A DNA stretch of 40,858 nucleotides. Origin: a virus. The notes beneath the pieces are model-generated. The model did no database searches. It was not told the origin of the DNA and saw only the letters and a list, made by a program, of their open reading frames with translations. The stretch lies in UHGV virus genome UHGV-0055581, one strand, 5' to 3'. The position numbers and the translations under genes are program-made. Positions 34,606 to 40,858 of this stretch are shown here, in pieces. Position 1 is the first letter of the stretch; the number at the start of each line of letters is the position of its first letter.

Positions 34606-34977
34606 TTAATCATCCATGGATGGATTGAGCTTATCTCGTGTTGATGTGGCGATTTGTCCTACATTCCTAAGCCAAGATTTCAAATCCTTGATATTGTCAT
34701 TGATTTCATGAATATCTTCTTTTTTTAATCTGTTAATATTATTCTCAATAATTTCAATGGATTGCTCAATATCAGATATAGTGAATGATAGTTTGTTCTT
34801 CTCATCTTTTATTGAGTTTTTAAGTGCTTCGTTCTCAGTCTTGAGGTCAGATATCTTTTGTTTTAAAGATGCCAGTTGGTACTGAACCACAATGAGTGCG
34901 ATAGCTATCACGATAACTGTTGTATACACACCAACCTCCTTAGTTTTGCGCAGGATACCAGATGAAATGGTCTTCAA
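34606..34977 (-). CDS. Membrane-anchored coiled-coil protein, candidate superinfection-exclusion factor (sieA position)
   Basis: 123 aa; N-terminal TM helix (VYTTVIVIAIALIVV) then heptad coiled coil; strongly AT-rich; TTG start overlapping the stop of the upstream Mnt-like gene; no good SD. Confidence 0.5.
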   Translation of the reverse strand: MKTISSGILRKTKEVGVYTTVIVIAIALIVVQYQLASLKQKISDLKTENEALKNSIKDEKNKLSFTISDIEQSIEIIENNINRLKKEDIHEINDNIKDLKSWLRNVGQIATSTRDKLNPSMDD

Positions 34978-35357
34978 AACTGGATGTCTTCAGCATCATC
35001 GCCAAAAACATTTTTATATGCATCTTGCCTTAAGCTCCTGAGAGCTTGATACATTTGCGAATGAGAACTGATGCTATCTAGTAAGTAGAAAATTGCTTTG
35101 ACTAGCTCATTCTCCCACCGCTCAAACTCTTCTTTGTTTGATGGCCTGTTCCCGGAGAGGTTTGAGTAAATCTTCATAATCCTGGAGTTATCAACCTCAG
35201 CAGGCACCGGAGACTTCAATGCATCATCAATGATAAACACTAGTTCTGTATTCATTGATCTGCCGTTTTCCTTTGCTCTTAAGGCTATAGCATCCCGCAT
35301 TCCTGCCGGAAGCCTGATATTGAACCTATCCATTTCATGACTAGGGAACTTGCTCAT
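34974..35357 (-). CDS. Mnt-like ribbon-helix-helix repressor with extended C-terminal domain
   Basis: 127 aa; FNIRLPAGMRDAIALRAKENGRSMNTELVFIIDDALKSPVP resembles P22 Mnt FNFRMPMEVREKLKFRAEANGRSMNSELLQIVQDALSKPSPV (recollection); divergent from arc. Confidence 0.65.
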   Translation of the reverse strand: MSKFPSHEMDRFNIRLPAGMRDAIALRAKENGRSMNTELVFIIDDALKSPVPAEVDNSRIMKIYSNLSGNRPSNKEEFERWENELVKAIFYLLDSISSHSQMYQALRSLRQDAYKNVFGDDAEDIQF

Positions 35358-35413
35358 ATGACCTCAACGTAAAGATGTTCGCTAAACAATAGCACCAACT
35401 TGACATCAAAATA

Positions 35414-35453
35414 AATGATACCAACTTGGTTCTAGAACCAAGTTGGTATCATT
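35414..35453. promoter_or_regulatory. 40-bp perfect palindrome (putative operator) between the divergent mnt-like and arc genes
   Basis: AATGATACCAACTTGGTTCTAGAACCAAGTTGGTATCATT; a third half-site-like copy ACCAACTTG at 35393..35401 overlapping a TTGACA hexamer. Confidence 0.7.
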
Positions 35454-35469
35454 GTGGAGGGGATTACTT

Positions 35470-35643
35470 ATGAAAGATGTGCTTTACACAGGTCGTAAAA
35501 GTCAAAGTTTCCAGCTTCGTTTGCCAGCGCGAATGAAGGAGGAGATTAGACGTGTTGCTGAAATGGATGGAATTTCTATCAACTCTGCGATTGTGCAGCG
35601 ACTGGCTAAAAGCCTGAGAGAGGAAAGAGCTAATGCCCAGTAA
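35470..35643 (+). CDS. arc: Arc-like ribbon-helix-helix repressor
   Basis: 57 aa; FQLRLPARMKEEIRRVAEMDGISINSAIVQRL resembles P22 Arc FNLRWPREVLDLVRKVAEENGRSVNSEIYQRV (recollection); GGAGG RBS. Confidence 0.7.
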   Translation: MKDVLYTGRKSQSFQLRLPARMKEEIRRVAEMDGISINSAIVQRLAKSLREERANAQ

Positions 35644-36343
35644 AAATAGTGAAGCCCAGCAGTGCGCGAACACAAACTGGGCCTCTATGTCAGTAACCGT
35701 ATGCAAGGAAACTAACGTGAATATTGTAGCAAAATCAGATTACAACTTCCACGGAGTTGAGTTGGTGCCCACCCGTGATATGCATGGTGTTTGGTTTACA
35801 TCATCTAATATTGCATCTGCACTTAAATACGCAAATAGTCGTGCAGTAACAATGATTTATAACAAGTATAGCGATGAGTTTAGCGCCGGAATGACTCAGG
35901 TACTCGAAGTGAGTACCTCAGGAAATTATCGCAAAAAAGTGCGAGTTTTCTCACTACGCGGTGCCCACCTAATCGCGATGTTTGCTCGCACTCCGGTAGC
36001 CAAAGAGTTCCGCCGCTGGGTGCTGGATATTTTGGATCGGCAGGCAGAATGCTCACCGATTGCAAAACAGTTTACTGACGAAGAGCTGGTTAATCTCTGC
36101 TACTTACAATTGTGGATGGAGAAGAGTCAACAAATGTGCAAACACATCTACCCAGGAATGAAGCAAATTTGTTCTGAGCTTTCAGGAAGGATTTACGATA
36201 TCGCATATGAGACTCGCTATATGTCAGAAGAAACCAAGAAATCACTTCTTCGTGAAGTGAAGAATCTTGATACCAACAATTTTGTCGTAAAGAACGCTCA
36301 GCCAATGCTGGCAAAACTGCGCGGCGAGGAATGGATTCATTGA
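35633..36343 (+). CDS. ant: Antirepressor with Bro-N-type N-terminal domain
   Basis: 236 aa; N-terminal FHGVELVPTRDMHGVWFTSSNIASALKY...VFSLRGAHLIAMFARTPVAKEFRRWVLDIL resembles the Bro-N domain (recollection); overlaps the arc 3' end as in the P22 arc-ant operon. Confidence 0.65.
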   Translation: MPSKNSEAQQCANTNWASMSVTVCKETNVNIVAKSDYNFHGVELVPTRDMHGVWFTSSNIASALKYANSRAVTMIYNKYSDEFSAGMTQVLEVSTSGNYRKKVRVFSLRGAHLIAMFARTPVAKEFRRWVLDILDRQAECSPIAKQFTDEELVNLCYLQLWMEKSQQMCKHIYPGMKQICSELSGRIYDIAYETRYMSEETKKSLLREVKNLDTNNFVVKNAQPMLAKLRGEEWIH

Positions 36344-36431
36344 TTGGTGCGCCGGACGGCGCAAAAAGAAAACCGCCAGTGTGCTGCTGGCGGCCTATGT
36401 CACACCCTTACTACCACATAAGGAATGCCTA

Positions 36432-37160
36432 ATGACTTTTAAGAATGTAGCAAACATCGGATCCGTTGTCACGGATAAAACCATTGACAGCCAGCGCCTG
36501 CTTGAGATGGTCAATCATGCTCGTAGACAGTGCGGGGAAAAAGAAGTCCGCAATAACGACTTTATTGCACGCATTAAGGATGAACTTGAAGGTGAGCACT
36601 ACGAAATTTTCGTAGTTCAAAAATCAAACAAGACAAGTTCTGAAAAAGTTGTTATGTCAATTAAGCAAGCCCTTCGAGTGGCTGCTCGTGAATCTAAAGC
36701 TGTTCGCCGCTCACTGGTAGACCAACTTGAAAGTATGCAAGAAGCGCACATTAAAAGCGGTAAATCAGCGAGTGGACTTGTTGAGTATCGTCAAGCGCGA
36801 ACATTGAAAATGACGGTTGAAGCTGTTACCAATCTGTTCGATCTGATGCCAAATCTTGCGCCTGAGGCAAAGCAGACAGCGGCAGCAAGTATAATCAACC
36901 CGCTCGTTGGTTTTAATGCAATACCTCTTCCGGCAATAGAAGAGCATTACTACTCAGCAGGGGAGGTTGCAGAGCAGCTTGGAGTAACGGCCAACAAGAT
37001 TGGTCGCATTGCTAACGCAAACAACCTCAAAACTGAGCAGTACGGGAAGTTCTTCCTGGATAAATCGGCGCATTCCAGCAAACAGGTAGAGGCGTTTCGT
37101 TACAATTCTGAAGGCGTTAAAGCACTACAACACCTGCTACATGGCTCAAATGTGGCGTAA
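36432..37160 (+). CDS. Hypothetical protein (242 aa) downstream of ant
   Basis: ATG with AAGGAA RBS; no confident family; upstream in-frame extension to 36381 is possible. Confidence 0.5.
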   Translation: MTFKNVANIGSVVTDKTIDSQRLLEMVNHARRQCGEKEVRNNDFIARIKDELEGEHYEIFVVQKSNKTSSEKVVMSIKQALRVAARESKAVRRSLVDQLESMQEAHIKSGKSASGLVEYRQARTLKMTVEAVTNLFDLMPNLAPEAKQTAAASIINPLVGFNAIPLPAIEEHYYSAGEVAEQLGVTANKIGRIANANNLKTEQYGKFFLDKSAHSSKQVEAFRYNSEGVKALQHLLHGSNVA

Positions 37161-37175
37161 CATTTTATAATGAAA

Positions 37176-37206
37176 ACTAAACCCGCTTAATCGCGGGTTT
37201 TTTCTT
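37176..37206 (+). terminator. Rho-independent terminator (possibly bidirectional)
   Basis: AACCCGC-TTAATC-GCGGGTT hairpin followed by TTTTTCTTT. Confidence 0.7.
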
Positions 37207-37444
37207 TCCTTAGAATTTCAGCCGCAACTTCTTTTACTCGTTCCGAGATTAATGAGGCCAGCCTCTCTTCTTCATCACGATACCCGCTTACAGGTGATGG
37301 TTTGGAGAGTGATTCTTCCATCGTAGCCACAATTTCGGAATTGATAGACCTGTTATTCATTTTTGCACGCTGCTTAATCTTAGCGTGCAACTCGTGTGTA
37401 AGCCTCAAGTGGAACTGCGCCTCATCGTATTTGCTGTACATCAT
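37187..37444 (-). CDS. mnt: Mnt-family repressor (second copy, P22 Mnt-like length)
   Basis: 85 aa; FHLRLTHELHAKIKQRAKMNNRSINSEIVATMEESLSKPSPVSGYRDEEERLA resembles P22 Mnt by recollection; start at the internal Met of the longer ORF. Confidence 0.7.
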   Translation of the reverse strand: MMYSKYDEAQFHLRLTHELHAKIKQRAKMNNRSINSEIVATMEESLSKPSPVSGYRDEEERLASLISERVKEVAAEILRKEKTRD

Positions 37445-37576
37445 CAATGCCTCACCAAATGGGTGGAATGGCATCGTAAAACCTACTGTACAAATCAACA
37501 ATCGTACCGTTTCGGTATGTAACAAATGCCAACCGTAGCCATGCTGCGGCGATTCCTTGTATCTGGAGCAAATTAA

Positions 37577-40282
37577 ATGACAGACATTACAGCCAATGTT
37601 GTAGTGAGCATGCCTTCGCAACTCTTCACTATGGCGCGTTCTTTTAAAGCCGTAGCTAATGGCAAAATTTATATCGGTAAAATTGACACTGACCCGGTAA
37701 ATCCTGATAACCAGATTCAGGTCTATGTTGGGAACGAAGATGGTTCTCACGTTCCTGTTGCACAGCCAATCGTCATCAATGCCGCTGGGTATCCAGTATA
37801 TAACGGACAGATTGCCAAATTCGTAACCGTGCAAGGCCATTCTATGGCTGTTTACGATGCTTATGGCACTCAGCAGTTTTATTTCCCAAATGTATTAAAA
37901 TACGATCCAGATCAGTTTGGCCCAGACTTCAAAGAGCAGTTATCTCAATCAGGAGCATACATTAATGATGATTCAAAAGGTGATGCATTAATTGGGGTAA
38001 GGCAGCCATTTACCGGGGCTGTAACTATAACTCAGCATGAAAACAATGCTCTTTTCTTAAATGTAAAACAATTCGGAGCAATTGGGGATGGGAAATATCA
38101 TCCATTATCTGAGAGGTTTTCTTCAATTTCTGAAGCAAAATCCTTATATCCTTTTGTTGACTCATTATCTCAGTCAATAGACTGGGCCGCGTGGCAAGCT
38201 GCCCTTAACACAGGAAAGGTTATTTATGGTACTGATAATGCGTATGTAATAACGGATACGTTAACACCTGTTTCTGGTGGTGGGATAATTGGTCTTGGTG
38301 TGGGCAAATGGGTCTCCGGATATACTGCAACATTTGCTCCTGATATTACCACAGGGACCACATTCCTGATGTACGGGGTAGGAAATAAAAAATATACTGT
38401 AGATTGTGTTTCTAATATGGATGTTAGTGGTGGTGTGGTTTCTAATCCATCTTCCGAAGACCCGTATACAACAACAGCACCTGCGTCATCATATGATTTA
38501 TTGGATTTTACTAACGGTGATGCTAATGGGACTACAAGAGCCACGCTTAAACCATTCTCTGCCGCAATATTGATGCCTGAGACAGGATGTGTTCGCCTTG
38601 AGAACTTTCGTGTTGTTCCATATTTCAATGGGCTGGATGGTTATAAAGACATTGCAAATACCGGTCTTGGCGATGAGTGGGATGTAGGTATTTGGTCACG
38701 TGCGTCTTTTGGCAATGAATACCGCAATTTGCAGGTGGTTGGATACTGGCGCAAGACGGCACTTTTAAAAACGAACATTCCTGTATCTGGCACGCTGGCT
38801 GCTCAGGGCGAGGATGAAAACTATTATCACTGTAGATTCCAGGGATTCAAGGGTGTTTCGATCCGCGCCAATGATGTATTCCGAATTACAGCGGTAACGT
38901 CCAGCACTATCGAAATCCCATGGTCAGCAAGCCACACCTTCGAAACGTCCGGAGTTTTAAGATCTGGAGGCAGGAATTTCACTTATTCAGGATTATCCGT
39001 ATCCGGTGATAAGTTAGTATTTACTGGAGTGTCTAACGCTTCTGAGGCAACAGTAGGTTCTACTATACGGCGAAATGACATAGATAACTTTGGTATGGCG
39101 GGAACGCAATTTTTCGATTGCTACATTACCAGCCTGTATCACCACACACATCTGCTTGCCACATCGCAATACCTGTCTCAACCATTCAGCCGACCATCAG
39201 AGTGTATGGAGGTTTCAGGGGAACCAGTTCGCGGTGTACAGGTACATGCAGGAACCATTCAGGGATGGGATGATGTTCTTATTCATCTGCATGACTGTGG
39301 AAATATGAACTTTTACAGTACATATTTCGAAAGCCAGCAAGCATATGTAACTATAAATGGTGGTAATGCTATTGGTTATGGAGCACGTATGATAGCTTCC
39401 CGGCAATCAACAAGCTCATTACCATATGCAGCAGGGAATACACGAGTGCTTAGAATGGTCGGGTGCTCTGAAGGCAATGGCGTTGACTGGGGTCCTGTAT
39501 TTAACAACTATACAGGAGGAAGATATAATTCTGGAGACGGTGTATTTAACCCCCGCGATGCATTTATAGACCATAAATCTCTTCCTGAGCAGTCAGGAGG
39601 TGAGTCAAGACTCGTATCACAAAAAGGAAATGCCAGAGTAGTATGTGGTGTTGGTAAAACTGTACTGCTTGGACCAACGTCAGGAGATTGTAATTTACAG
39701 AGTAATACCGGAAGTTTAAATATTAGAAGTGGGATAAGAGTAAGAGTCGGTCACGCTGATGGAACAGACTGGTGGTTGGCAGATGCTAATAAAATAGCTC
39801 CTGTTGATGATAATGTTAAAGCTATTGGACAGCCATCAAACAGATGCTCTGTTATCTATGCAGGAACCGGGTCAATCAATACATCAGATGAAACTCTTAA
39901 AACAAGATATGATATTCTTAATGCAGAGCGTGATGCCGCTATTGAAATAAAGTCAGTCATCTATAAATTTAAATTTAATGACTCAATTAATCACAAAGGA
40001 ATTGAGTCGTCCAGGTATCATTTTGGCGTTGGCGCTCAAACCGTAGGGGATATTCTTAGAAAGCATGGTTTAAATCTTGAGCAATATGCTTTTTGGTGTT
40101 ACGATGAATGGCCTGACGTATGGGATGAAGAGGTGATAACTGAAGAGAGCACAGATCCTGATACAGGTGAGAAAATTTATTCTCAATATAAAACAGGAGA
40201 TATGATTCTTGTAAAAAAAGCAGGAGGACGCTACGGAATTCGTTATGACGAATTGGCTATGTTTATATTAATGGCAATGTAG
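37577..40282 (+). CDS. Tailspike: P22-type head-binding N-terminal domain, divergent receptor-binding domain, C-terminal chaperone-like region
   Basis: N-terminal ~110 aa ([34 protein letters not shown]...VLKYDPDQ) match the P22 tailspike by recollection; remainder AT-rich and unrelated; C-terminus has an SDETLK motif like the cleavage-site motif of endosialidase-type chaperone domains. Confidence 0.9.
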
Positions 40283-40300
40283 TTGCAATAAATGCAGTAT

Positions 40301-40330
40301 ATCCCGCATAAAAATGCGGGATTGTTTTTA
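40301..40330 (+). terminator. Rho-independent terminator after the tailspike gene
   Basis: ATCCCGCA-loop-TGCGGGAT hairpin followed by TGTTTTTAT. Confidence 0.75.
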
Positions 40331-40628
40331 TCTGGTGTATTTATGAATTTTAAGTAAATTTTAGTATTGATTACTGCATCGCAGTTAAAGCCTCATTACC
40401 TATGAGGCAAAACTGAGACACACAAGGCTTTGCACTGGATTGCAAGGCTTTGTGCTATCTGAGATATAGCAATGTTGGTTGCTCCACCTTTTCATCAAGC
40501 CAGTCCGCCCACCACTGCATCATTTCTCTGCGCTTATCGAGATACTGAGCATGGTTGTAAATTCAACTAACCCAGTGAGTTGACAAAAAATTAGCGCAAG
40601 AAGAAAAAAAATCACCTTGCGCTAATGC

Positions 40629-40790
40629 TCTGTTACAGGTCACTAATACCATCTAAGTGGTTGATTCATAGTGACTGGATATGTTGTGTTTTGTCGCGTT
40701 TTGCAGTCTATTATTTAATTATTAAGTAATCTAATGCTATGATTTTTAAATTATTTATTTGATTTTGTCATCCTTTAGGTGAAAAAGGTT
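40629..40790. other. attR: attR: P-arm Int arm-type sites (CAGGTCACTAAT 40636..40647; inverted TTCATAGTGACTG 40666..40678) and core repeat (40773..40783)
   Basis: CTGTTACAGGTCACTAATACCATCTAAGT and GATTCATAGTGACTGGATATGTTGTGTTTT match the lambda attP P-arm as recalled; the core repeat is identical to that at 45..55. Confidence 0.7.
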
Positions 40791-40858
40791 GAGTCGCAAA
40801 GCAGAATGCATCTAGCATAAAGCCTTATTATTGATGAGGCTATCATGCGCGTACTGCT

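What the first reader, a model, noticed from the sequence alone, without database searches (positions are those of the whole stretch)
37577..40282. Tailspike with P22 head-binding domain, novel receptor-binding domain and C-terminal self-cleaving chaperone-like motif
Only the first ~110 residues match the P22 tailspike; the central ~650 residues are AT-rich and unrelated, likely a beta-helix depolymerase of unknown glycan specificity. The C-terminal ~130 residues contain SDETLK followed by a conserved-looking tail ([12 protein letters not shown]), resembling the auto-proteolytic intramolecular chaperone of endosialidases (cleavage between Ser and Asp). No Asp-box sialidase motifs are evident, so the specificity is probably not polysialic acid.
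Basis: partly seen in the sequence, partly recalled or inferred. Interest (0 to 1): 0.55.

Follow-up and report, generated by a model that had tools for sequence, protein, structure and literature searches.

The report
Prophage tailspike, probably targeting K13-type capsule
This gene encodes an ordinary modular tailspike of a P22-like E. coli prophage, with a head-binding domain, a sugar-cutting beta-helix and a self-cleaving folding chaperone; its one new aspect is that host genomes point to the K13/K20/K23 (ribose-Kdo) capsule as its likely target.

Summary

Three details need correcting:
- Cleavage is predicted at Thr769|Ser770, not Ser|Asp.
- The central domain is not an orphan: 1186 representative clusters match it. 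RefSeq holds near-identical (98-99%) copies named "phage tailspike protein", and the exact sequence occurs in gut-metagenome contigs.
- The central part is not notably AT-rich; the chaperone is.

The new result concerns specificity. The receptor-binding and chaperone module occurs in 15 of 5426 complete E. coli genomes, on two unrelated prophage backbones, in hosts of O6, O1 and O102. Eleven of the 15 carry krkA, the polymerase of the K13/K20/K23 capsule, which only 65 of 5426 genomes have (P~4e-19). The capsule is therefore the likely receptor. This is inferred, not shown.

It is a new member of a known kind, of modest interest.

The parts
37577..40282 (+). Tailspike gene, 901 aa (98.2 kDa precursor), including the stop codon
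   Evidence: ORF listing. phrog_1171 'tail spike protein' matches residues 1-901 with E=1e-254. RefSeq WP_021511856.1 'phage tailspike protein' is 99.3% identical at the DNA level.
37577..37915 (+). P22-type head-binding (particle-attachment) domain, residues 1-113
   Evidence: PF09008 covers 1-113 of 113 model positions, E=1.3e-65. PDB matches are P22 tailspike 1-121 and Sf6 gp14 1-184.
37916..37993 (+). Linker/neck, residues 114-139. It contains the 5' module-exchange boundary at about residue 133 (nt ~37975).
   Evidence: DNA identity to the 991-aa variant starts at query nt 399. The protein alignment becomes ~99% identical from K133 'KGDALIGV'. pLDDT is low here.
37994..39583 (+). Right-handed parallel beta-helix receptor-binding domain (putative depolymerase), residues ~140-669. 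Family-conserved D369, R392, R430, D433, H522, E545, R552 and E585 are candidate active-site residues.
39584..39883 (+). C-terminal stalk, residues 670-769, presumed intertwined in the trimer. It holds D745 and R756 and ends at T769.
   Evidence: PF12219 (endosialidase stalk end) matches 735-769 at 22.8 bits, below its 25-bit cutoff. The monomer model has low pLDDT for 670-713.
39881..39886 (+). Predicted autoproteolytic site, Thr769|Ser770 (Ser770 codon TCA at 39884-39886; Lys775 codon at 39899-39901)
   Evidence: S770 aligns with the Ala of the S911A endoNF (3gw6) and S1264A T5 pb1 (4uw8) constructs, and K775 aligns with their catalytic Lys. The T5 scissile bond is Thr1263-Ser1264 (PMC4690869).
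39884..40279 (+). Peptidase-S74 intramolecular chaperone domain, residues 770-901 (15.3 kDa), predicted to be released after trimer folding
   Evidence: PF13884 scores 23 bits against a cutoff of 22. phmmer of the C-terminus gives 7y5s 1.7e-21, 9vvr 3e-15, 3gw6 4e-14, 6eu4 2e-11, 4uw8 1e-10 and 3gud 2.5e-9. The family profile gives E=1e-34 to 1e-49. Foldseek finds 3gw6, 4uw8 and 3gud with probability 1.00. pLDDT is 78-96.
40301..40332 (+). Intrinsic terminator of the tailspike gene
   Evidence: A 9-bp stem (5 GC pairs) followed by a T-run; sequence read.

Best explanation
The gene encodes the tailspike of an integrated P22-like (Lederbergvirus-type) prophage of E. coli. The proposed working is as follows; every step is inferred by homology or association and none was measured here.
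1. Three chains assemble. The C-terminal S74 chaperone (770-901) trimerises first and nucleates folding of the intertwined stalk and the beta-helices.
2. Once the stalk is correctly folded, R756 of a neighbouring chain, together with D745 and T769, forms the oxyanion site. K775 activates S770, and the Thr769-Ser770 bond is cut. This releases a 15-kDa chaperone and leaves an 83-kDa mature spike (1-769).
3. The N-terminal head-binding domain docks the trimer onto the tail hub, giving six spikes per virion.
4. The beta-helix domain binds and most likely hydrolyses a host surface polysaccharide, so that the phage can tunnel to the outer membrane.
5. That polysaccharide is most probably the group 2 capsule with the K13/K20/K23 backbone, ->3)-beta-D-Ribf-(1->7)-beta-D-Kdop-(2->, rather than an O-antigen.

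My confidence is about 0.9 for the architecture, the fold and an intact S74 catalytic apparatus. It is about 0.55 for the capsule specificity.
For: Architecture: domain and PDB sequence matches; AF2 pLDDT 87 with a 56-sequence MSA; fold matches.

Catalytic apparatus: S770 and K775, plus D745, R756 and T769, align with the residues described for T5 pb1 (D1239, R1250, T1263, S1264, K1269) and with endoNF. In the 56-member family alignment they are kept in 34-38 members, and 32 members score PF13884.

Context: the gene lies downstream of the P22 gp16-type ejection protein and an immI-like Arc/Mnt/Ant region. A lambda-type integrase sits at the left end and host DNA lies beyond the right end.

Specificity:
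- The receptor-binding plus chaperone module (residues 133-901, 97-99% identical) sits on two unrelated prophage backbones, as 901-aa and 991-aa proteins.
- Carrier hosts have different O-loci: O6, O1 and O102.
- Eleven of 15 carriers hold krkA, which is present in only 65 of 5426 complete genomes. The hypergeometric P is 4e-19 and the odds ratio about 270.
- UPEC_U013, whose tailspike is 99.3% identical to the window's, encodes WP_001336789 verbatim. This is KrkA, shown biochemically to be the sole polymerase of the K13/K20/K23 repeat (PMC12887879).
- Negative control: at least 18 genomes carry a sister tailspike with the same head-binding domain and a 90%-identical chaperone but a divergent central domain. 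None of them is among the 65 krkA+ genomes.
- Conserved Arg and His residues alongside carboxylates are compatible with an anionic (Kdo) substrate.
Against: - Four of the 15 carriers lack krkA. LS45 and XH992 share another K-locus, 23CRST013 has a third, and OZ547246 is absent from the krkA list. The link is therefore statistical, not absolute.
- Carriers are not phylogenetically independent; EC21Z-144 and EC21Z-151 come from one patient.
- A prophage records past infection, not current receptor expression.
- No enzymatic activity, bond specificity or autoprocessing was measured.
- The active-site residues are guessed from conservation only, because model coordinates could not be inspected.
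- The protein's own PF13884 score (23.0 bits) barely exceeds the 22-bit cutoff, although profile and fold evidence are strong.
- The protein itself does not hit PF12708; only 22 of its 56 relatives do.
Confidence: 0.75

Rival explanations
1. The beta-helix domain is an O-antigen-specific endoglycosidase, as in P22, Sf6 and HK620, and the capsule association is a by-product of lineage structure.
For: Most characterised P22-like tailspikes target O-antigen (established knowledge). Sf6 tailspike and the O-antigen-cleaving LKA1 gp49 and phi297 gp27 spikes are among the nearest sequence and fold matches for the start of the helix.
Against: Carriers of the 98-99% identical module have three different O-antigen loci: O6, O1 and O102. 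The module tracks krkA instead.
Confidence: 0.12
2. The spike recognises some other glycan common to these strains (colanic acid, ECA, or the shared poly-Kdo linker of group 2 capsules), or it binds without cleaving.
Against: A common receptor predicts no enrichment for one K-type, whereas the observed odds ratio is about 270. Colanic-acid loci are near-universal in E. coli (seen). Strictly conserved carboxylates in the family suggest catalysis.
Confidence: 0.12
3. It is an endosialidase-type K1 capsule spike like that of CUS-3, as database names such as 'putative endo-N-acetylneuraminidase' suggest.
For: One source names a 991-aa homologue 'putative endo-N-acetylneuraminidase' (P0078). Pfam End_tail_spike and Peptidase_S74 both hit.
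Against: Those hits cover only the stalk end and the chaperone (735-832). There is no Asp-box and no beta-propeller. The catalytic region is a beta-helix, and the endosialidase catalytic chains match only the stalk, at E=0.47.
Confidence: 0.01

Closest known systems
CUS-3 tailspike (P22-like K1 prophage endosialidase)
   Same: It has the same three-part plan: a P22 head-binding domain, a capsule-degrading centre and a C-terminal S74 chaperone. The head-binding DNA is 88% identical (H11). It sits on a temperate P22-like phage of ExPEC that uses a group 2 capsule as receptor.
   Different: The CUS-3 centre is a sialidase beta-propeller specific for polysialic acid. Here the centre is a beta-helix with no sialidase motifs, and the inferred target is the Ribf-Kdo capsule.
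Endosialidase endoNF chaperone (PDB 3GW6) and T5 pb1 chaperone (4UW8); closest by sequence is Klebsiella phage Kp7 gp51 (7Y5S)
   Same: The Ser-Lys dyad spacing (S-x4-K), the preceding Thr, the stalk Arg and Asp, and the fold are all shared. E-values are 1e-10 to 1e-21, with Foldseek probability 1.00 for 3gw6 and 4uw8 and 0.99 for 7y5s.
   Different: Each is attached to a different upstream domain: a beta-propeller plus stalk, the pb1 'bullet' domain, or another beta-helix. Autoprocessing of this particular protein is untested.
Sf6 gp14 / P22 gp9 / HK620 tailspikes
   Same: They share the head-binding domain (Sf6 1-184, E=3e-85), a right-handed beta-helix catalytic domain, and the gene's position in the P22-like genome.
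   Different: Those spikes end in a beta-prism or C-terminal trimerisation domain without a cleavable S74 chaperone, and they target O-antigens. Beyond residue ~184 there is no sequence similarity.
991-aa 'tail fiber domain-containing protein' of E. coli prophage-like elements (e.g. YDC107_2, CP025713)
   Same: Residues 133-901 are 97-99% identical, so the receptor-binding domain and chaperone are the same.
   Different: It has an unrelated ~220-aa N-terminal anchor and sits on a different mobile element, an 18.6-kb excisable element in YDC107.
Phage-borne Kdo-glycanases of K13/K20/K23-specific coliphages (1980s-90s biochemical literature; recalled from memory, not found in the searchable library)
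   Same: The substrate would be the same if the inference here is right.
   Different: As far as I could find, those enzymes were never tied to a sequence (searches returned nothing), so identity cannot be tested.

Membership tests
P22-type tailspike head-binding domain (PF09008) | Full-length match to the Head_binding model above the gathering score | tested here: met
   219 bits against a cutoff of 24, covering residues 1-113 of 113 model positions; P22 and Sf6 PDB chains match with E=1e-44 to 1e-85.
P22-type tailspike head-binding domain (PF09008) | Genomic position downstream of the ejection proteins and immI region of a P22-like genome | tested here: met
   A gp16-type protein (PF26808), Arc-family genes and Ant (Bro-N + P22_AR_C) lie upstream.
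Peptidase S74 / intramolecular chaperone (PF13884) | Sequence match to the family model above the gathering score | tested here: met
   23.0 bits against a cutoff of 22, which is marginal. Support comes from phmmer E=1e-9 to 1e-21 against six solved chaperone domains and family-profile E=1e-34 to 1e-49.
Peptidase S74 / intramolecular chaperone (PF13884) | Catalytic Ser and Lys five residues apart, with a preceding Thr and the stalk Arg/Asp that sense trimer folding | tested here: met
   S770 and K775, T769, R756 and D745 align with S1264, K1269, T1263, R1250 and D1239 of T5 pb1 and with endoNF.
Peptidase S74 / intramolecular chaperone (PF13884) | Chaperone fold (helical core with beta-hairpin 'tentacles') at the extreme C-terminus, after a trimeric stalk | tested here: met
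   AF2 pLDDT is 78-96 for residues 770-901. Foldseek finds 3gw6, 4uw8 and 3gud with probability 1.00, and TM is 0.73-0.76 on 3gud.
Peptidase S74 / intramolecular chaperone (PF13884) | Actual autoproteolytic release after trimerisation | not testable with these tools
   This needs expression of wild type against S770A or K775A.
Right-handed beta-helix (pectin-lyase fold) phage depolymerase | Parallel beta-helix fold with an N-terminal cap motif (DFGAxGDG-like) | tested here: met
Right-handed beta-helix (pectin-lyase fold) phage depolymerase | Demonstrated glycan cleavage and identified catalytic residues | not testable with these tools
   Only conservation is available: D369, D433, E545 and E585 plus R392, R430, R552 and H522.
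Endosialidase (GH58) | Six-bladed beta-propeller with Asp-box motifs | tested here: not met
   There is no Asp-box, the fold is a beta-helix, and endosialidase chains match only the stalk.
K13/K20/K23 capsule-specific receptor-binding protein (functional class) | Co-occurrence of the receptor-binding module with the K13/K20/K23 polymerase gene krkA across unrelated host backgrounds | tested here: met
   11 of 15 carriers against 65 of 5426 genomes overall, P=4e-19, with hosts of O6, O1 and O102 and two prophage backbones. The sister-spike control gives 0 of at least 18.
K13/K20/K23 capsule-specific receptor-binding protein (functional class) | Binding or degradation of the Ribf-Kdo polysaccharide | not testable with these tools
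   This needs an enzyme assay on reference capsules.

The most novel reading that the evidence does not exclude
This could be the first sequence-defined phage glycanase for the beta-Kdo/ribofuranose capsules K13, K20 and K23. K13_K23 is associated with invasive E. coli disease (PMC13171606). If so, the large uncharacterised beta-helix family it belongs to (about 1200 clusters at 50% identity) would contain a new glycoside-hydrolase activity, an endo-Kdo-ase or ribofuranosidase, on a tailspike scaffold.
Probability: 0.35. Interest if true: 0.55.

Novelty: new member of a known kind. Interest (0 to 1): 0.35.

Why it matters
The architecture itself teaches nothing new. P22-like spikes with swapped receptor-binding domains and S74 chaperones are textbook, and CUS-3 is the precedent.

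The value lies in the specificity prediction. E. coli K13_K23 was recently reported among the K-types most associated with invasive infection (PMC13171606). Its polymerase was characterised only in 2026 (PMC12887879), and I found no depolymerase sequence assigned to it.

A cloned, self-maturing spike specific for Ribf-Kdo capsule would be a typing reagent, a decapsulating enzyme and a phage-engineering part. It would also anchor functional annotation of a large unannotated depolymerase family. Finally, the case shows that prophage receptor-binding domains can be matched to K-types by simple co-occurrence in complete genomes.

Tried and rejected
- Single-sequence AF2 of residues 110-901 gave pLDDT 33 and was discarded. 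It was redone with a 56-sequence MSA.
- The search for homologous proteins on the centre returned only ~99% identical E. coli copies. This first suggested an orphan domain, but the exhaustive representative search overturned that.
- The NCBIfam scan returned nothing useful.
- The O-antigen hypothesis was tested by locating O-loci in three carriers and was rejected, because they are O1, O102 and O6. Several positional guesses missed.
- I first guessed from memory that the UPEC_U013 capsule locus was K2 (teichoic-acid-like). The literature corrected this to K13/K20/K23 KrkA.
- The idea that the krkA-negative carriers hold a divergent krkA allele is not supported where I looked: LS45, XH992 and 23CRST013 have different region-2 gene sets. 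OZ547246 was not inspected beyond its absence from the megablast list.
- I looked for a lysogenic-conversion acetyltransferase next to the spike, as neuO is in CUS-3. None is present, and the downstream gene is a host periplasmic binding protein.
- Literature searches for a sequence-defined K13/K20/K23 depolymerase found none. One search term (E14a) was wasted on BCR-ABL papers.
- The endosialidase reading was rejected on fold and motifs.
Full report
**Observation**

The window holds an ORF at exactly 37577..40282 on the + strand, 901 codons long. It has a GGAG eight bases upstream of the ATG and a strong intrinsic terminator at 40301-40322. SDETLK occupies residues 770-775 and [12 protein letters not shown] residues 887-898. 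No Asp-box-like motif is present. GC content is 0.43 for the head-binding part, 0.44 for residues 185-735 and 0.36 for residues 770-901, against 0.47 for the whole window. The chaperone is therefore the AT-rich segment, not the centre.

**Context**

The window is a complete integrated P22-like prophage. A lambda-type integrase lies at the left end, and the morphogenesis genes run rightwards. They are followed by the gp16-type ejection protein, an immI-like block with three Arc/Mnt-family genes and an Ant protein (Bro-N + P22_AR_C), and then the tailspike. Host DNA lies beyond the right end: a metagenome contig that extends further shows a periplasmic binding protein gene there. The exact protein sequence is on record in human-gut metagenome contigs of about 41.7 kb. 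In RefSeq, eight complete E. coli genomes carry a 98-99% identical gene annotated 'phage tailspike protein'. In strain 702/18 the copy is interrupted by an IS3 element.

**N-terminal module**

Pfam Head_binding covers residues 1-113 at E=1e-65. P22 tailspike chains align to residues 1-121, and Sf6 gp14 aligns to 1-184 at E=3e-85. At the DNA level only the first ~340 nt are shared with other P22-like phages, including Sf6, HK620, CUS-3 and epsilon34.

**C-terminal module**

- Pfam Peptidase_S74 matches residues 770-832 just above its cutoff (23 bits against 22). The end of the endosialidase stalk model matches 735-769 just below its cutoff.
- A phmmer search of the last 183 residues against the PDB finds six solved intramolecular chaperones: Kp7 gp51 (7Y5S, 1.7e-21), 9VVR, endoNF (3GW6, 4e-14), 6EU4, T5 pb1 (4UW8, 1e-10) and 3GUD.
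- In those alignments Ser770 falls on the alanine of the S911A and S1264A crystallisation mutants, and Lys775 falls on the catalytic lysine.
- T769, R756 and D745 align with T1263, R1250 and D1239 of T5 pb1. The T5 structure paper assigns these to the kink, the oxyanion site and the folding sensor (PMC4690869).
- That paper also states that the scissile bond is Thr1263-Ser1264 and that the serine leaves with the chaperone, as in K1F.
- The prediction here is therefore cleavage at Thr769|Ser770, not between Ser and Asp. The products would be an 82.9-kDa mature chain and a 15.3-kDa chaperone.
- A profile of the family raises the PDB chaperone matches to E=1e-34 to 1e-49.
- The AF2 model of this part has pLDDT 78-96, and Foldseek recovers 3GW6, 4UW8 and 3GUD with probability 1.00.

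**Central module**

The word-indexed search returned only ~99% identical E. coli proteins. The exhaustive search of 50%-identity representatives found 1186 clusters at E<=1e-3 and 159 at E<=1e-30, mostly 30-50% identical. The domain is therefore uncharacterised but not orphan. It also corresponds to phrog_33794 and phrog_1171.

Among 56 aligned members, 32 carry an S74 chaperone. N-terminal anchors vary: T7 tail-fibre N-terminus, Tail_spike_N, or Head_binding. Twenty-two members reach the Pect-lyase_RHGA_epim model.

All of these matches are at 8-21% identity, and Foldseek agrees. By sequence, only the N-terminal cap of the helix matches solved structures.

Family-invariant or nearly invariant residues are G389, R430 and E585, followed by D369, W391, R392, Q422, G423, D433, H522, E545 and R552. 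The carboxylates are candidate catalytic residues, and the Arg and His residues would suit an anionic substrate. I could not inspect model coordinates, so this is inference.

**Modularity**

Residues 133-901 recur at 97-99% identity in a 991-aa protein with an unrelated N-terminus. In strain YDC107 that protein sits on an 18.6-kb excisable element (PMC6035167). Conversely, about 20 genomes carry a 'sister' P22-type spike with the same head-binding domain and a 90%-identical chaperone. Its centre is only a distant member of the same beta-helix family, and near-identity resumes exactly at T769-S770. Exchange points thus flank the receptor-binding domain.

**Specificity**

I asked which surface glycan the 15 carriers of this receptor-binding module (out of 5426 complete genomes) have in common.

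O-antigen loci differ:
- EC21Z-151 has O1-family wzx/wzy.
- YDC107 has O102, consistent with its published serotype O102:H6.
- UPEC_U013, whose spike is 99.3% identical to the window's, has O6.

UPEC_U013 has a group 2 kps locus whose region 2 is a single 1114-aa 'HAD family hydrolase', WP_001336789.1, plus an O-acetyltransferase. A 2026 JBC paper shows that this very accession is KrkA of the K13 reference strain NCTC9022. KrkA is the sole polymerase of the K13/K20/K23 backbone ->3)-beta-D-Ribf-(1->7)-beta-D-Kdop-(2->, and the three serotypes differ only in O-acetylation (PMC12887879).

Megablast finds krkA in only 65 of 5426 genomes, and all 65 were eventually enumerated. Eleven of the 15 module carriers are among them:
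- UPEC_U013 and DLL7555 have a region 2 identical to that of NCTC9022.
- EC21Z-151, EC21Z-144, YDC107, HS4, E22, SBF22, CH10508, 702/18 and CS5L have a 97%-identical krkA allele followed by a different CatB-type acetyltransferase.

The expected number by chance is 0.18, and the hypergeometric P is 4e-19. None of the at least 18 sister-spike genomes is krkA+. This ties the association to the central domain rather than to the phage backbone or the chaperone.

The four exceptions have other K-types. LS45 and XH992 share a glf/ugd-containing locus, and 23CRST013 has a third locus. OZ547246 lacks krkA by megablast. Capsule switching after lysogeny is a plausible explanation, but these cases keep the inference probabilistic.

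I found no publication that assigns a sequence to a K13/K20/K23 depolymerase. My recollection of 1980s reports of a phage Kdo-glycanase acting on these capsules could not be verified in the library.

**Mechanism (best account)**

1. The chaperone trimerises and templates the intertwined stalk and the three beta-helices.
2. Correct stalk folding positions R756 of a neighbouring chain next to D745 and T769.
3. K775 activates S770, the T769-S770 bond breaks and the chaperone leaves.
4. The mature trimer docks through its head-binding domain.
5. The beta-helix binds and probably hydrolyses the Ribf-Kdo capsule, giving access to the outer membrane.

Shown here are the domain identities, the conserved residues, the fold and the genomic association. 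The processing, the enzymatic activity and the substrate are inferred.

**Comparison and verdict**

The closest precedent is the CUS-3 endosialidase spike, which has the same three-part plan on a P22-like ExPEC prophage that uses a group 2 capsule. Its catalytic domain is a beta-propeller specific for polysialic acid, whereas this protein has a beta-helix. The protein meets the tested membership criteria for PF09008, for S74 and for the beta-helix depolymerase fold, and it fails those for endosialidases.

It is a new member of a known kind and is already present in databases under a generic name. Interest is modest (0.35) and rests on the testable K13/K20/K23 prediction.

Noticed in passing
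window 37187-37840 (-): The mechanical 217-aa ORF overlapping the tailspike start is almost certainly a much shorter Arc/Mnt-family repressor gene. Its C-terminal 85 aa hit PF03869 at E=3e-15, and a 95-aa gene is called at the same place in the metagenome contig. A bidirectional terminator lies at 37179-37200.
   Followed up: partly
window 34974-37160: This is an immI-like region with Arc-family genes (34974-35357 on the - strand, 35443-35643 on the + strand) and an Ant-type protein with Bro-N + P22_AR_C (35633-36343). A 259-aa ORF (36381-37160) has no Pfam hit, and a 123-aa coiled-coil ORF (34606-34977, - strand) is of unknown function.
   Followed up: partly
L002 (CP025713.1, Escherichia phage YDC107_2) 2847-5685; NZ_CP025707.1 1077257-1079563: The same receptor-binding plus chaperone module sits in a 991-aa protein on an 18.6-kb excisable element that also has an integrase, an MT-A70 methylase and an endolysin. 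The GenBank record splits the gene into fragments. Whether the element is a defective prophage or a satellite that brings its own spike was not examined.
   Followed up: no
NZ_CP074701.1 (strain 702/18) 4845217-4849267: In this genome the 901-aa tailspike gene is interrupted by an IS3-family element. The same genome also carries the 991-aa variant.
   Followed up: no
L013 (NZ_CP025707.1 1703733-1708137) vs L012 (NZ_CP058596.1 875716-880016): Two krkA capsule-locus variants exist in complete genomes. Eleven have a region 2 identical to NCTC9022 (the K13_K23 type). Forty-nine have a 97%-identical krkA followed by a different CatB-type O-acetyltransferase (possibly K20; not verified). Four more have a krkA truncated at about 92%.
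   Followed up: partly
window 39884-40282: The chaperone-coding segment has much lower GC (0.36) than the prophage (0.47). It recurs at 90% DNA identity behind a different receptor-binding domain in about 20 genomes. This fits a separately travelling module with a recombination boundary at the cleavage site.
   Followed up: partly
window 40283-40858; L021 6269-7087: The right end of the window is non-coding attR/host DNA. The next gene, just beyond the window, is a host LacI-family periplasmic sugar-binding protein, so this copy is not at the ybhB-bioA site used in UPEC_U013. Carriers show at least two integration sites.
   Followed up: partly
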